Positions 6,247 to 13,059 of a stretch of 64,000 nt of DNA are shown here, piece by piece. Origin of the DNA: the human T2T-CHM13v2.0 reference genome, Homo sapiens. The notes under the pieces are model-generated. The model had not been told where the DNA came from. It made no database searches and saw only the letters and a program-made list of their open reading frames with translations. The stretch lies in NCBI RefSeq assembly GCF_009914755.1, contig NC_060925.1. One strand, written 5' to 3'. Within the stretch, counting starts at the first letter, position 1. Each line of letters begins with the position of its first letter. A program made the position numbers and the translations under genes.

Positions 6247-6450
6247 GTTGTTAAATGCAGTCATATTACTTTGAATAAACAAATAACTAGAACATAAGAA
6301 CATAGAATAATGGGGCAAAGAAAGTTACTATATAATAATAAAAGGTCTCATTCACCAGGAATGTGTAACAAATCTAACCTCATACACACTTAAAACATAA
6401 CTCAAAATAAGTAAAACAAACATCAAAAGAACTCTTAAGAAGAAATGTTC

Positions 6451-6605
6451 TACTCTTGTGCCTTCTCCATGTTGGGAGCTCCGGGCGACATCCTCACAGC
6501 CTCTGCTTCCCTGTGATCTGCAGGTCCTTGGGGACACATAGCTAAGATACCAGGACATCCTGGAAGCTAGGAAATGACATACAAGAAGCCTAGTTGAGAA
6601 CATCT
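6451..6605 (+). other. 5'-transduced non-L1 leader: KRAB-ZNF (ZNF91-subfamily-like) exon 1 (6451-6576) plus a 29-nt linker
   Basis: Lies inside the L1 TSDs; CTGTGATCTGCAGGT...AGCTAAGATACCAGGACATCCTGGAAGCTAGGAAATG resembles ZNF91-family first exons that end at the ATG. Confidence 0.75.
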
Positions 6606-7600
6606 GGGAGGAGGTTCCAAGATGGCCAAATAGGAACAGCTCCAGTCTGCAGCTCCCAGCATGAGTGATGCAGAAGACAGGTGATTTCTGCATTTCCAAC
6701 TGAGGTACTGGGTTCATCTCACTGGGGCTTGTCAGACAGTGGGTGCAGCCCACGGAGCAGGGTGGGGCATCGCCTCACCCAGGAAGTGCAAGGGGTCGGG
6801 AAATTCCCTTTTCTAGCAAAGGGAAGCAGTGACATACGGTACCTGGAAAATCGGGACACTCCCACCCTAATACTGCCCTTTTCCAATGGCCTTAACAAAT
6901 GACACACCAAGAGATTATATCCTGCGCCTGACTCGGAGGGTCCCACGCCCATGGAGCTTCACTCACTGCTAGCACAGCAATCTGAGATTGAACTGCAAAG
7001 TGACAGAGAGGCTGGGGGATTGGCGTCCGCCATTGCAGAGGCTCGAGTAGGTAAACAAAATGGCTGGGAAGCTTGAACTGGGTGGACCCACCACCGCTCA
7101 AGGAGGCCTGTCTCTGTAGACTCCACCTCTGGGGACAGGGCATAGCTGAACAAAAGGCAGCAGAAACTTCTGCAGACTTAAACGTCCTGTATGACAGCTT
7201 TGAAGAGAGTAGTGGTTCTCCCAGCATGGAGTTTGAGATCTGAGAACAGACAGACTGCCTCTCAAGTGGGTCCCTGACTGCCAAGTAGCCTAACTGGGAG
7301 ACACCTCCCAGTAGGGGCAGACTGACACCTCATACAGCTGGGTGCCCCTCTGAGACAAAGCTTCCAAATGAAGAATCAGGCAGCAACATTTGCCATTCTG
7401 CAATATTTGCTGTTCTGCAGCCTCTGCTGCTGACACCCAGGCAAACAGGGTCTGGAGTGGACCTCCAGCAAACTCCAACAGACCTGCAGCTGAGGGTCCT
7501 GACTGTTAGAAGGAAACTAACAGACAGAAAGGACATTCACACCAAAACCCCGTCTGTACGTCACCATCATCAAAGACCAAAGGTAGATAAAACCATAAAG

Positions 7601-8686: not shown

Positions 8687-11600
8687 ATGACAGGATCAAA
8701 TTCACACATAACAATATTAACCTTAAATATAAATGGGCTAAATGCTCCAATTAAAAGACACAAATTGGCGAATTGGATAGAGTCAAGACCTATCAGTGTG
8801 CTGTATTCAGGAGACCCATCTCACATGCAGAGACACACATAGGCTCAAAATAATGGGATGGAGGAAGATCTACCATTTGAGGAAGATCTACCAAGCAAAT
8901 GGAAAACAACAAAAAAGGCAGGGGTTGCAATCCTAGTCTCTGATAACAGACTTTAAACCAACAAAGATCAAAAGAGACAAAGAAGGCCATTACATAATGG
9001 TAAAGGGATCAATTCAACAAGAAGAGCTAACTATCCTAAATATATATGCACCCAATACAGGAGCACCCAGATTCATAAAGCAAGCATTTAGAGACTTACA
9101 AAGAGACTTAGACTCCCACACAATAATAATGAGAGACTTTAACGCCCCACTGTCAACATTAGACAGATCAACGACACAGAAAGTTAACAAGGACATCCAG
9201 GAATTGAACTCAGCTCTGCACCAAGCAGACCTAATAGACATCTGCAGAACTCTCCACCCCAAATCAACAGAATATACATTCTTCTCAGCACCACATTGCA
9301 CTTATTCCAAAATTGACCGCATAGTTGGAAGTAAAGCACTCCGCAGCAAATGTAAAAGAACAGAAATTATAACAAACTGTCTCTCAGACCACAGTGCAAT
9401 CAAACTAGAACTCAAGATTAAGAAACTCACTGAAAACCACTCAACTACATGGAAACTGAACAACCTGCTCCTGAATGACTACTGGGTACATAACAAAACG
9501 AAGGCAGAAATAAAGACGTTCTTTGAAACCAATGAGAACAAAGACAGAACATACCAGAATCTCCGGGACACATTTAAAGCAGTGTGTAGAGGGAAATTTA
9601 TAGCACTAAATGCCCACAAGGGAAAGCAGGAAAGATCTAAAATTGACACCCTAACATCACAATTAAAAGAACTAGAGAAGTAAGAGCAAACACATTCAAA
9701 AGCTAGCAGAAGGCAAGAAATAACTAAGATCAGAGCAGAACTGAAGGAGATAGAGACACAAAAAACCCTTCAAAAGATCAATGAATCCAGGAGCTGGTTT
9801 TTTGAAAAAATCAACAAAATTGATAGACCTCTAGAAAGACTAATAAAGAAAAGAGAGAAGAATCAAATAGACGCAATAAAAAGTGATAAAGGGGAGATCA
9901 CCACTGATCCCACAGGAATACAAACTACCATCAGAGAATATTATAAACACCCCTACACAAATAAACTAGAAAATCTAGAAGAAATGGATAAATTCCTGGA
10001 CATATACACCCTCCCAAGACTAAACCAGCAAGAAGTTGAATCCCTGAATAGACCAATAACAGGTTGTGAAATTGAGGAAATAATTAATAGCCTACCAACC
10101 AAAAACAGTCCAGGACCAGATGGATTCACAGCCGAATTCTACCAGATGTTCAAAGAGGAGCCAGTACCATTCCTTCTGAAACTATTCCAATCAATAGAAA
10201 AAGAAGGAATCATCCCTAATTCATTTTATGAGACCAACATCATCCTGATACCAAAGCCTGGCAGAGACACACACAACAAAAAAAGAGAATTTTAGACCAA
10301 TATCCCTGATGAACATCAATGCAAAAATCCTCAGTAAAATACTGGCAAACTGAATCCAGCAGCACATCAAAAACTTATCCACCACGATCAAGTGGGCTTC
10401 ATCCCTGGGATGCAAGGCTGGTTCGACATATGCAAATCAATAAATGTAATCCAGCATATAAACAGAACCAAAGATAAAAACCACATGAGTATCTCAATAG
10501 ATGCAGAAAAGATCTTTGACAAAATTCAACAGCCCCTTCATGCTAAAAACTCTCAATAAACTACGTATTGATGGAACATATCTCAAAATAATAAGAGCTA
10601 TTTATGACAAACCCACAGCCAATAACACACTGAATGGGCAAAAGCTGGAAGCATTCCCTTTGAAAACTGGCACAAGACAGGGATGCCCTCTCTCACCACT
10701 CCTATTCAACATAGTGTTGGAAGTGCTGGCCATGGCAATCAGGCAGGAGAAAGAAATAAAGGGTATTCAATTAGGAAAAGAGGAAGTCAAATTATCCCTG
10801 TTTGCAGATGACATGATTGCATATTTAGAAAACCCCATTGTCTCAGCCCAAAATCTCCTTAAGCTGATAAGCAACTTCAGCAAAGTCTCAGGAGAGAAAA
10901 TAAGTATGCAAAAATCACAAGCATTCCTATACACCAATAACAGAGAAACAGAGAGCCAAATCATGAGTGAACTCCCATTCACAATTGCTTCAAAAAGAAT
11001 AAAATACCTAGGAATCCAACTTACAAGGGATGTGAAGGACCTCTTCAAGGAGAACTACAAACCACTGCTCAATGAAATTAAAGAGGATACAAACAAATGG
11101 AAGAACATTCCATGCTCATGGATAGGAAGAATCAATATTGTGCAAATGGCCATACTGCCCAAGGTAATTTATAGATTCAATGCCATCCCCATAAAGCTAC
11201 CAATGACTTTCTTCACAGAACTGGAAAAAGCTACTTTCAAGTTCATATGGAACCAAAAAAGAGCCCGCATTGCCAAGTCAATCCTAAGCCAAAAGAACAA
11301 AGCTGGAGGCATCAGGCTGCCTGACCTCAAACTATACTACAAGGCTACAGTAACCAAAACAGCATGGTACTGGTACCAAAACAGAGATATAGATCAATGG
11401 AACAGAACAGAGCCCTCAGAAATAATGCTGCATATCTACAACTATCTGATCTTTGACAAACTTGAGAAAAACAAGCAATGGGGAAAGGATTCCCTATTTA
11501 ATAAATGGTGCTGGGAAAACTGGCTAGCCATATGTAGAAAGCTGAAACTGGATCCCTTCCTTACACCTTATACAAAAATTAATTCAAGATGGATTAAAGA

Positions 11601-12530
11601 CTTAAACGTTAGACCTAAAACCATAAAAACCCTAGAAGAAAACCTAGGCATTACCATTCAGGACATAGGCATGGGCAAGGACTTCATGTCTAAAACACCA
11701 AAAGCAATGGCAACAAAAGCCAAAATTGACAAATGGGACCTAATTAAACTAAAGAGCTTCTGCACAGCAAAAGAAACCACCATCAGAATGAACAGGCAAC
11801 CTACAGAATGGGGGAAAATTTTTACAATCTACCCATCTGACAAAGGGCAAATATCGAGAATCTACAAAGAAATTAAACAAATTTACAAGAAAAATCAAAC
11901 AACCCCATCAAAAAGTGGACAAAGGATATGAACAGACACTTCTCAAAAGAAGAAATTTATGCAGCCAACAGACACAAGAAAAAATGCTTATCATCACTGA
12001 CCATCAAAGAAAAGCAAATCAAAACCACAATGAGATACCATCTCACACCAGTTAGAATGGCAATCATTAAAAAGTCAGGAAACAACAGGTGCTGGAGAGG
12101 ATGTGGAGAAATAGGAACACTTTTACACTGTTGGTGGGACTGTAAACTAGTTCAACCATTGTGGAAGACAGTGTGGCAATTCCTCAAGGATCTAGAACTA
12201 GAAATACCATTTGACCCAGCCATCCCATTACTGAGAGTATACCCAAAGGATTATAAATCATGCTGCTATAAAGACACATGCACACATATATTTATTGTGG
12301 CACTATTCACAATAACAAAGACTTGGAACCAACCCAAATGTCCATCAATGATAGACTGGATTAAGAAAATGTGCCACATATACACCATGGAATACTATGC
12401 AGCCATAAAAAATGATGAGTTCATGTCCTTTGTAGGGACATGGATGAAGCTGGAAACCATCATTCTGAGCAAACTATAGCAAGGACAGAGAACCAAACAC
12501 CACATGTTCTCACTCATAGGTGGGAATTGA
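8687..12530 (+). pseudogene. Disrupted L1 ORF2p (endonuclease/reverse transcriptase)
   Basis: Fragments 8997-9683, 9984-10295, 10501-11931 (FADD motif) and 11928-12479 (cysteine-rich domain); several stops and frameshifts. Confidence 0.92.
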
Positions 12531-13059
12531 ACAATGAGAACACTTGGACACAAGGTGGGGAACATCACACACTGGGGCCTGTTGTGGGGTGAGGGGAGGG
12601 GAGAGGGATAGCATTAAGAAATATACCTAATGTAAATGACGAGTTAACGGGTGCAGCACACCAACATGGCACATGTATACATATGTAACAAACCTGCACG
12701 TTGTGCACATGTACCCTAGAACTTAAAGTATTATAATAATAATAAAGAAGAAGAAATGTTCACTACCATAATGAAAGATTTTAACACCTGTTTTTCAATA
12801 ATTAATAAACAGCCAAAAAATCAGCAAGCAACATAACTTACAAGCTTAATCTAATAAATAGCTACAGAATATTGACTCAACATTGGACTGTATACATTCT
12901 TTTAACATATTCATGAAACACTGATAGAAATGTATCATGTACATGACCATAAAGCAAGCCTCAAAACTGTCAGAAAATTGGTACGTACACAGTATTCTCT
13001 AAGTACAATACAATTAAGTTATAAATCAATGCAAAGAGATAAGTTTTTAAATCTCCAAA

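What the first reader, a model, noticed from the sequence alone, without database searches (positions are those of the whole stretch)
6437..12761. L1PA5 insertion carrying an apparently spliced KRAB-ZNF exon 1 as a 5' transduction
Seen: the perfect 14-bp TSD AAGAAGAAATGTTC (6437-6450, 12748-12761; TT/AAGA endonuclease site) lies 155 nt upstream of the L1 5' end (6606), and the host L1M sequence rejoins cleanly across it. So 6451-6605 was inserted together with the L1. Recalled knowledge: 6451-6576 (..CAGCCTCTGCTTCCCTGTGATCTGCAGGT..GGGGACACATAGCTAAGATACCAGGACATCCTGGAAGCTAGGAAATG) resembles first exons of ZNF91-subfamily KRAB-ZNF genes, which end at the initiator ATG before a GT donor. Here the ATG (6574-6576) is followed by ACATAC..., not GT. 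Inference: a KZNF promoter transcribed exon 1, which spliced to a cryptic acceptor 29 nt upstream of a sense-oriented intronic L1, and the chimeric RNA was retrotransposed. L1 5' transductions are rare, and this resembles the MAST2-exon capture of SVA_F1. The ZNF91 subfamily includes the L1 repressor ZNF93, so this would be an L1 borrowing a promoter from its repressors' gene family. I cannot name the donor gene or say whether this case is already described.
Basis: partly seen in the sequence, partly recalled or inferred. Interest (0 to 1): 0.9.

Follow-up and report, generated by a model that had tools for sequence, protein, structure and literature searches.

The report
L1 insertion carrying spliced KZNF-type exon
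An old, dead full-length L1 retrotransposon was copied into chromosome 1 together with a spliced first exon of a KRAB zinc-finger-type gene; it is a real but single example of a kind of chimera that was catalogued in 2026.

Summary
A perfect 14-bp target-site duplication (6437-6450 / 12748-12761) encloses a 155-156-nt non-L1 leader plus a full-length but broken L1PA element (6607-12747). The host L1M reading frame continues across the empty site.

The leader has two pieces.
- 6451-6576 matches KZNF-type first exons at about 30 places in the same genome (T2T). Homology stops exactly at the ATG, and 18 of 29 loci examined continue with GT.
- 6577-6605 occurs at six other loci. In 5 of 6 it directly follows a polypyrimidine tract and CAG.

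On chr12 and twice on chrY the two pieces lie on one strand, 27.7-30.8 kb apart. The leader is therefore a spliced transcript that was retrotransposed with the L1 in one event.

Some things were not found:
- No source L1 lies beside the 29-mer at any paralog.
- No sibling copy carries the leader.
- The nearest chr12 relative has no KRAB or zinc-finger exon in the 44 kb scanned.

The class is already published. Law & Burns 2026 list 17 such insertions, including a ZNF681 exon-1 case and a RAP1GDS1 case with a cryptic acceptor 15 bp upstream of its source L1. This locus is not in their table. Verdict: a new member of a known kind, of moderate-to-low interest.

The parts
6317..6436 (+). Host L1M fragment, left flank (homologous to the ORF2 endonuclease region)
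   Evidence: Its translation aligns to residues 42-85 of the ORF2 stretch taken from the window's own L1. The nucleotide hit is collinear.
6437..6450 (+). 5' target-site duplication AAGAAGAAATGTTC, preceded by TT (TT/AAGA cleavage site)
   Evidence: D12, 100% identical to 12748-12761.
6451..6576 (+). Leader piece 1: copy of a KZNF-type first exon, ending at the initiator-type ATG
   Evidence: It matches 31 other places in the genome at E<=0.001, the top-listed ones at 79-85%. Homology ends at base 126. 18 of 29 loci examined continue with GT, mostly GTGAGT. A processed copy (L014) joins the same exon to a KRAB box (PF01352, E=1.1e-4).
6577..6606 (+). Leader piece 2: 29-30 nt that begin at a splice acceptor in the donor family. 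The G at 6606 is ambiguous between donor and L1.
   Evidence: Six other loci match with 1-3 mismatches and the reversed-pattern control gives 0. In 5 of 6 the piece is preceded by TTCTTTCATCATCTTCCCAG. The paralogs continue GGGTTAGAGG..., not with an L1.
6607..12747 (+). Full-length L1PA element (6,141 nt) with both ORFs broken and only an A-rich remnant of a tail
   Evidence: The 5' end GGAGGAGGTTCCAAGATGGCC is a subfamily variant with 102 genomic matches at <=1 mismatch. 8 of 8 fetched relatives start at the same base. It is collinear with the window's second L1, 91.2% over 5,284 nt. The longest stop-to-stop frame is 476 aa.
12748..12761 (+). 3' target-site duplication AAGAAGAAATGTTC
   Evidence: D12.
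12762..12956 (+). Host L1M fragment, right flank; resumes the ORF2 homology
   Evidence: Its translation aligns to residues 89-161 of the same ORF2 stretch.

Best explanation
One L1 target-primed reverse transcription event inserted a chimeric, spliced RNA. Its order was: a KZNF-type first exon (transcribed from that exon's own promoter, ending at ATG), joined by splicing to an AG acceptor about 28-31 kb downstream in the same locus, then 29-30 nt of that downstream sequence, then a complete L1PA element.

Shown: both boundaries of the leader coincide to the base with a GT donor and an AG acceptor in the donor gene family. The two pieces are syntenic and co-oriented at present-day paralogs. 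The whole unit lies inside one TSD pair at a TT/AAGA site in an L1M.

Inferred: the L1 sat in cis, in sense orientation, about 30 nt downstream of that acceptor on an allele or paralog that no longer exists in this genome. Host-gene read-through plus splicing then produced an RNA that still encoded the L1 proteins and was polyadenylated at the L1's own site.

The copy left no detectable progeny carrying the leader, and it is now dead. I put the core (a spliced chimeric RNA, a single event) at about 0.9 and the cis-source detail at about 0.55.
For: - TSD, cleavage site and host collinearity.
- Exon-1 homology ends at leader base 126. 18 of 29 loci then read GT, and 3 more are themselves spliced copies.
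- KRAB is joined to this exon type in the processed copy L014 (PF01352, 22.2 bits against a cutoff of 20.4). L010 also carries a KRAB-like piece.
- The 29-mer sits at 6 loci, and in 5 of 6 it directly follows a polypyrimidine tract and CAG.
- Exon-1 copy and 29-mer share a strand at chr12:38049250/38080139, chrY:19197160/19225032 and chrY:18521765/18493983.
- For the cis detail: all six paralogs read GTT|AAGAAC or GTT|AAAAAC. This puts a TT/AAGA- or TT/AAAA-type site 10-13 nt before the junction, the right distance for the TSD of a source L1. Only 8-15% of positions in these loci and in the window have such a site 7-20 nt upstream.
- Published precedent with a surviving source: RAP1GDS1-L1PA2 uses a cryptic acceptor 15 bp upstream of the intronic source L1 (PMC13174262, section 14).
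Against: - No paralog of the acceptor region carries an L1. Only 6 such loci exist in the T2T genome.
- No exon-1 copy is closer than 85.7%, so neither donor nor source is identified.
- The chr21 copy has the best 29-mer (28/29) but no exon-1 copy in the one 10-kb stretch checked, 24-34 kb upstream.
- The chr12 copy has lost its AG through a 4-nt deletion, and the chrY copies read GA instead of GT at the donor. No present-day locus could make this RNA as it now stands.
- The junction lies in a GGG run. The donor-derived piece could equally end at CTGG, which is followed by GT in the paralogs; that fits joining in trans.
- Law & Burns favour trans-splicing for 15 of their 17 cases because no intronic L1 was found (section 20).
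- Arrival of leader and L1 together could not be checked in other primates.
Confidence: 0.55

Rival explanations
1. Joining in trans. The KZNF-type transcript was spliced from exon 1 to a 31-nt mini-exon that ends at a GT donor (the paralogs read CTGG|GTTAGA). Its 3' end was then attached to the very 5' end of a separate L1 RNA. This could have happened by trans-splicing, or by the L1 reverse transcriptase jumping from the end of the L1 template onto the free 3' end of a 5'-exon splicing intermediate.
For:
- The L1 starts at or within one base of its natural first base.
- No source L1 exists at any paralog.
- Law & Burns report that six transduced exons end precisely at donors, some of them joined to the first 10 bp of L1. 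They also report that 15 of 17 gene loci lack an intronic L1 (sections 13 and 20).
Against: - By my estimate (not computed), a GT at one of four permitted break points is expected by chance in roughly a fifth to a quarter of cases.
- GTTAGA has T at +3, which I recall as rare in donors.
- No retrocopy or other sequence shows this mini-exon spliced onward: the 29-mer occurs only at the 6 genomic paralogs.
- The L1-type cleavage site at TSD distance is unexplained under this model.
Confidence: 0.3
2. Template switch or microhomology joining at an arbitrary internal point. During insertion the reverse transcriptase reached the L1 5' end and switched into the middle of an unrelated spliced KZNF-type RNA at the GGG microhomology. 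This would resemble U6/L1-type chimeric retrogenes.
For: There are 1-3 nt of G microhomology at the junction. Chimeric L1 insertions formed with other RNAs are known (abstracts of PMC6789731 and PMC13174262).
Against: As I recall the classical chimeras, they join the 3' end of a complete small RNA to a 5'-truncated L1. Here the L1 is complete and the partner RNA would be cut only 29-31 nt after a splice junction. The orientation and the first-exon content match the transduction class instead.
Confidence: 0.07
3. Not one event. Either the leader and the L1 arrived separately, or the 14-bp repeat is a chance match and the leader is old local sequence.
For: Exact repeats of 12-15 nt are not rare in this A-rich region: 7 exact pairs in 6.8 kb. 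No cross-species alignment was available.
Against: - Both repeat copies are host L1M sequence, and the host frame resumes exactly after the second copy.
- The leader has no TSD or tail of its own.
- The repeat abuts the L1 3' end.
- The leader is absent from L1M homology and is unique in the genome as a 155-nt unit.
Confidence: 0.03

Closest known systems
5' transduction chimeras of LINE-1 with spliced mRNA/lncRNA exons (Law & Burns, Cell Genomics 2026, PMC13174262; sections 13, 14, 20 and all of Table S5 read)
   Same: - First exon(s) in sense orientation, ending at a splice donor and fused to a (near) full-length L1 inside one TSD pair at an endonuclease site.
- A long intron follows the captured exon: 28-31 kb here, against a published median of 48 kb.
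- The source L1 is usually not found.
- Several Table S5 rows show a short extra piece (13-42 bp) between the exons and the L1.
- The MAP3K13 row is described in the text as a full-length L1PA5 and carries the same GGTTCC 5' variant.
   Different: - This chr1 insertion is not among the 17 rows. The only chr1 rows are at 68.68 and 121.3 Mb (hg38), and the TSD string is absent from all four tables.
- The donor here is a dispersed, apparently orphan KZNF-type first exon rather than a named gene.
- Arrival time was not tested here.
RAP1GDS1-L1PA2 promoter co-option (same paper, section 14)
   Same: An upstream exon spliced to a cryptic acceptor a few bases upstream of an intronic sense L1: 15 bp there, 29-30 nt here.
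   Different: There the source L1 still exists, lacks its own promoter, and produced several progeny. Here no source and no progeny were found, and the L1 keeps a complete 5' UTR.
ZNF681 exon 1-L1 chimera at hg38 chr3:94.44 Mb (Table S5, row 1)
   Same: A first exon of a chr19p12 KRAB zinc-finger gene, plus a 26-bp second piece from the same locus, fused 5' of a long L1. By eye its leader is homologous to this one; I did not align them.
   Different: It is a different insertion with a different TSD, and its L1 has a different 5' end. The paper's main text does not discuss it: 'ZNF681' occurs 0 times.
SVA_F1 with MAST2 exon 1 (recalled; named in the search listing, and the class is described in passages of PMC4859970)
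   Same: A retrotransposon that acquired a host first exon by splicing.
   Different: SVA_F1 became a propagating subfamily. Here 0 of the 31 other exon-1 matches has an L1 behind it.
U6/L1-type chimeric retrogenes made by template switching or RNA ligation (PMC6789731, abstract only)
   Same: Two RNAs are found in one TSD-bounded insertion.
   Different: As I recall them, those join a complete small RNA to a 5'-truncated L1. Here the partner is a spliced Pol II transcript and the L1 is full length.

Membership tests
L1 5' transduction / spliced exon-L1 chimeric insertion | Non-L1 sequence directly 5' of the L1, in sense, inside the same TSD pair | tested here: met
   The TSD at 6437-6450 / 12748-12761 encloses 6451-12747. 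The host L1M is collinear across the empty site.
L1 5' transduction / spliced exon-L1 chimeric insertion | L1 endonuclease-type target site | tested here: met
   CTCTT/AAGAAG, that is TT/AAGA.
L1 5' transduction / spliced exon-L1 chimeric insertion | Poly(A) tail at the 3' end | tested here: inconclusive
   Only ...ATAATAATAATAAAG remains before the TSD, and the TSD itself starts with AAGAAG.
L1 5' transduction / spliced exon-L1 chimeric insertion | The non-L1 part maps to the first exon(s) of a transcript, with boundaries at splice sites | tested here: met
   Donor: 18 of 29 loci read GT after the last matching base. Acceptor: 5 of 6 loci read polypyrimidine-CAG before the 29-mer. The pieces are co-oriented at 27.7-30.8 kb on chr12 and chrY.
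L1 5' transduction / spliced exon-L1 chimeric insertion | Leader and L1 arrive together in cross-species alignments | not testable with these tools
   No primate genomes are held.
L1 5' transduction in cis (read-through from the source locus) | A source L1 adjacent to the transduced flank | tested here: not met
   0 of 6 paralogs of the acceptor region has an L1 after the 29-mer. This covers the T2T genome only.
   In L014 the exon is joined to KRAB (PF01352, E=1.1e-4, above the curated cutoff). Six matches lie at chr19 21.99-24.18 Mb. That this region is the ZNF91 cluster is recalled, not tested.
   For the nearest relative, chr12:38047750-38091809: no KRAB A-box-like motif on either strand, while both positive controls were found. 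No TGEKP-type linker and only one isolated C2H2-like pattern. Pfam found no KRAB in 69 frames of >=40 aa from the first 12.2 kb. The true donor is unknown.
New propagating L1 lineage with a borrowed promoter (SVA_F1-like) | Several independent insertions share the leader | tested here: not met
   Only the window itself matches leader bases 1-155; 31 other matches stop at about base 126 or earlier. The three non-intronic continuations are not L1.
L1PA5 subfamily | Diagnostic subfamily positions (RepeatMasker or consensus) | not tested
   Indirect only. The GGTTCC 5' variant is shared with 102 genomic matches and with the insertion that Law & Burns call L1PA5. 5' UTR identity to 8 relatives is 84-89%, the same as among those relatives (median 86.4%).
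U6/L1-type template-switch chimera | The complete 3' end of the partner RNA joined to a 5'-truncated L1 | tested here: not met
   The L1 starts at its natural first base. The partner is cut 29-31 nt after a splice junction.

The most novel reading that the evidence does not exclude
The 29-31-nt piece is a mini-exon that ends at CTGG|GT. The chimera would then have formed when the L1 reverse transcriptase, on reaching the 5' end of its own RNA, jumped onto the free 3'-OH of a spliceosomal 5'-exon intermediate of a KZNF-type transcript. That would give a mechanism for the published but unexplained pattern 'exon ends exactly at its donor, L1 starts at base 1, no source L1 in the gene'. With the ZNF681 case, it would also hint that first exons of the L1-repressor gene family are recurrent partners because they are co-expressed with L1 in the germline or early embryo.
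Probability: 0.12. Interest if true: 0.7.

Novelty: new member of a known kind. Interest (0 to 1): 0.33.

Why it matters
It adds one clean case, resolved to the base, to a small published set of 17 L1 insertions that captured spliced host first exons, and it was missed by that catalogue. It is the second case in which the captured exon comes from the KRAB zinc-finger gene family, whose members repress L1.

Both splice boundaries can be read from paralogs, although the donor itself is gone. The junction geometry bears on the open question of whether such chimeras arise in cis or in trans: there is an L1-type cleavage site at TSD distance, but a GT is also available at the junction.

It has no sign of function. 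The copy is broken, left no progeny, and lies upstream of (outside) the annotated span of a lncRNA.

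Tried and rejected
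1. Idea: the extra GTT in the L1 5' end (GGAGGAGGTTCC against the common GGAGGAGCC) came from the donor exon, which reads GGGTTAGAGGTTC. Rejected. The variant has 102 genomic matches at <=1 mismatch, 24 of them exact, against 1,718 exact for the common form. 8 of 8 fetched copies start with it next to unrelated flanks.
2. Looking for an exon-1 copy upstream of the best 29-mer match on chr21. There is none in chr21:12460001-12470000, the only stretch fetched, and one search found no chr21 hit outside the short arm.
3. Looking for KRAB or zinc-finger exons at the chr12 locus. None were found in 44 kb. Two weak tblastn hits turned out to be an Alu and a retroviral env-like frame.
4. Testing host continuity by searching the genome with the left flank gave only one weak 62-nt hit. 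BLAST at E<=1e-3 against the window's own L1 gave nothing. Relaxed BLAST and protein-level alignment settled it.
5. Naming the donor by identity is not possible. Values are chr12 85.7%, chrY 84.9%, acrocentric copies 79.0-83.9% and chr19 copies 75.4-81.5% over 126 nt. This spread equals that between same-age L1 5' UTRs, so neither chr12 nor chrY can be excluded or confirmed.
6. A genome-wide search with the decayed KRAB peptide of L014 gave only weak hits (best E=0.05). One lies 11.3 kb downstream of the chr19:24181125 exon-1 copy on the same strand. This is too weak to use as proof.
7. Earlier findings of this scan were not open to the session.
8. The phrase "5' transduction" cannot be searched because of the prime sign. 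The literature was reached through other terms.

Full report
**What is there**

The window is chr1:112220001-112284000 of a complete human assembly that the tools could search. AAGAAGAAATGTTC occurs at 6437-6450 and again at 12748-12761 without a mismatch (D12). The first copy is preceded by TT, giving a TT/AAGA L1 endonuclease-type site. The second copy abuts the A-rich 3' end of an L1.

Between the repeats lie 155-156 nt that are not L1 (from 6451), followed by a 6,141-nt L1.
- The L1 is collinear with the window's second full-length L1 at 16377-22335: 91.2% over 5,284 nt, and 77.6% over the first ~690 nt.
- It is dead. The longest stop-to-stop frame is 476 aa.
- Its 5' end, GGAGGAGGTTCCAAGATGGCC, differs from the common GGAGGAGCCAAGATGGCC. 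This is a subfamily trait: 102 genomic matches at <=1 mismatch against 1,718 exact for the common form.
- Eight of eight fetched relatives begin exactly at GGAGGAGG next to unrelated flank. The L1 here therefore begins at 6607, and the G at 6606 is ambiguous.

**One event**

The flanks are an old L1M. The translated left flank 6317-6436 aligns to residues 42-85 of an ORF2 stretch, and the right flank from 12762 aligns to residue 89 onward. One TSD copy spans the three missing codons; relaxed nucleotide BLAST agrees. Both repeat copies are host sequence, and the leader has no tail or duplication of its own. Leader and L1 therefore entered together.

**Leader piece 1 (6451-6576)**

A genome search with the 155-nt leader gave 32 matches, and only the window itself covers bases 1-155. 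I aligned 29 of the 31 other matches.
- In 18 of 29, the base aligned to leader base 126 (the G of ATG) is followed by GT, mostly GTGAGT.
- The two chrY copies read GAGAGT.
- Three loci (chr4:10.24 Mb, chr15:25.64 Mb, chr15:69.86 Mb) continue with unrelated sequence and look like spliced retrocopies.
- Six loci share only bases 3-96.

In the chr15:25.64 Mb copy the exon is joined in frame to a KRAB box (PF01352, E=1.1e-4, 22.2 bits, cutoff 20.4). The chr4 copy has a KRAB-like piece about 270 nt further on. Six matches lie at chr19 21.99-24.18 Mb, which I recall as the ZNF91 cluster; gene names could not be obtained from the tools. Piece 1 is thus a KZNF-type first exon cut exactly at its donor.

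Identity over the 126 nt is 85.7% to chr12:38049250, 84.9% to the chrY copies, 79.0-83.9% to the acrocentric short-arm copies and 75.4-81.5% to the chr19 copies.

**Leader piece 2 (6577-6605)**

The 29-mer occurs at six other places with 1-3 mismatches, and the reversed-pattern control gives 0. The places are chr21:12436377, chrY:18493983 and 19225032, chr2:38710561, chr12:34106458 and chr12:38080139.
- In 5 of 6 it directly follows TTCTTTCATCATCTTCCCAG, a polypyrimidine tract plus CAG. The chr12:38.08 Mb copy has a 4-nt deletion there.
- All six continue GGGTTAGAGG (GAGTTAGAGG in one), not with an L1.
- A search with 301 nt around the chr21 copy found these six paralogs and no others, at 92-96% over 242 nt. 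Over 3 kb they are 84.6-92.2% alike.

On chr12 and on both chrY copies, an exon-1 copy lies 30.8 or 27.7 kb upstream on the same strand. It is not met for 'followed by an L1'.

**The donor**

It cannot be named.
- The spread of identities (about 85%) is the same as between same-age L1 5' UTRs of this subfamily: the window against 8 relatives is 84-89%, and the median among the relatives is 86.4%. The chr12 and chrY loci can therefore be neither confirmed nor excluded.
- The chr21 copy has the best 29-mer (28/29) but no exon-1 copy in the single 10-kb stretch checked.
- The chr12 locus, read contiguously over 44,060 bases, has no KRAB A-box-like motif on either strand. Both positive controls were detected.
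- It also has no zinc-finger linker, and Pfam found nothing in 69 frames from the first 12.2 kb.

The nearest living relatives are therefore orphan KZNF-type first exons in pericentromeric, chrY and acrocentric duplications, not intact genes.

**Mechanism**

The core is well supported: a Pol II transcript from a KZNF-type promoter, spliced exon 1 to a downstream acceptor, fused to a whole L1, and inserted by the L1 machinery.

How the L1 became attached is inferred. I favour cis, with a sense L1 about 30 nt downstream of the acceptor on a lost allele or paralog.
- The paralogs read GTT|AAGAAC or GTT|AAAAAC ... ATCT. This places a TT/AAGA- or TT/AAAA-type site 10-13 nt before the junction, as expected for the source L1's own target-site duplication.
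- Only 8-15% of positions in these loci and in the window have such a site 7-20 nt upstream.
- The published RAP1GDS1-L1PA2 case shows the same geometry with a surviving source.

Against cis: no source is found. Also, the GGG at the junction allows the donor piece to end at CTGG, which is followed by GT in all paralogs. That fits the trans-joining view that Law & Burns favour. I put cis at about 0.55, trans joining at an exon end at about 0.3, an arbitrary template switch at about 0.07 and separate events at about 0.03.

**Comparison with what is known**

A 2016 review says only a handful of L1 5' transductions were known, and that retrotransposition of upstream exons was reported 'at least for SVA' (PMC4859970, passages).

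Law & Burns 2026 (PMC13174262; abstract, sections 13, 14 and 20, and all three parts of Table S5 read) list 17 hg38 L1 insertions with 5'-transduced exons.
- 15 are in sense orientation and most carry near full-length L1s.
- Six end precisely at donors.
- The flanking introns are long (median 48 kb).
- For 15 of the 17, the gene locus holds no intronic L1.
- One row is a ZNF681 exon-1 chimera at chr3:94.44 Mb, which the main text does not mention.

This chr1 insertion is not in the table. The only chr1 rows are at 68.68 and 121.3 Mb, and the TSD string is absent from all four spreadsheets. The PDF supplements could not be read. Two further searches returned no other catalogue of this kind.

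**Verdict**

The source L1, the donor gene and the L1PA5 label remain unproven. The comparison with a propagating SVA_F1-like lineage fails, because no sibling carries the leader. It is a new member of a known kind.

Noticed in passing
window 16377-22335: A second full-length L1PA with the common 5' end (GGAGGAGCCAAGATGGCC at 16379). It is 91.2% identical to the studied L1 over 5,284 nt but only 77.6% over the first ~690 nt of the 5' UTR.
   Followed up: partly
L014 (chr15:25636803-25637018 of the same genome): A processed KZNF pseudogene. An exon-1 copy is joined directly to a decayed KRAB box, with stops after about 39 codons.
   Followed up: partly
L010 (chr4:10240778-10240882, minus strand) and L021 (chr15:69858811-69858914): Two more copies of the exon that stop at the ATG position and continue with non-intronic sequence. 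L010 has about 270 nt of other sequence and then a KRAB-like piece. Neither is followed by an L1.
   Followed up: partly
L006/L007 (chrY:19197160 and 18521765) and L037/L043 (chr12:38080139): The two chrY loci are 99.97% identical inverted copies about 675 kb apart. Their exon-1 donor reads GA instead of GT. The chr12 acceptor copy has lost its AG through a 4-nt deletion.
   Followed up: partly
L003-L005, L008, L009, L011-L013, L016, L017 (short arms of chr13, 14, 15, 21, 22): Exon-1 copies with an intact ATG|GTGAGT occur as inverted pairs about 51 kb apart on each acrocentric short arm.
   Followed up: no
L023, L024, L026-L029 (chr10:134.60 Mb, chr4:193.42 Mb, chr3:75.69 Mb, chr22:6.17 and 9.36 Mb, chr14:4.35 Mb): Six loci share only bases 3-96 of the exon and then switch to a different sequence common to all six. 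They look like a separate duplicon family built on the same promoter fragment.
   Followed up: no
chr12:38078300-38078490 (in L074, about 1.7 kb upstream of the 29-mer copy): An open frame resembling a retroviral envelope transmembrane region. It came up as a false KRAB hit. It was observed only.
   Followed up: no
Acceptor-region paralogs L038-L043: The ~240 nt around the acceptor and the 29-mer are 92-96% alike between paralogs, whereas the surrounding 3 kb is 84.6-92.2% alike. This could be chance or mild constraint on an exon.
   Followed up: no
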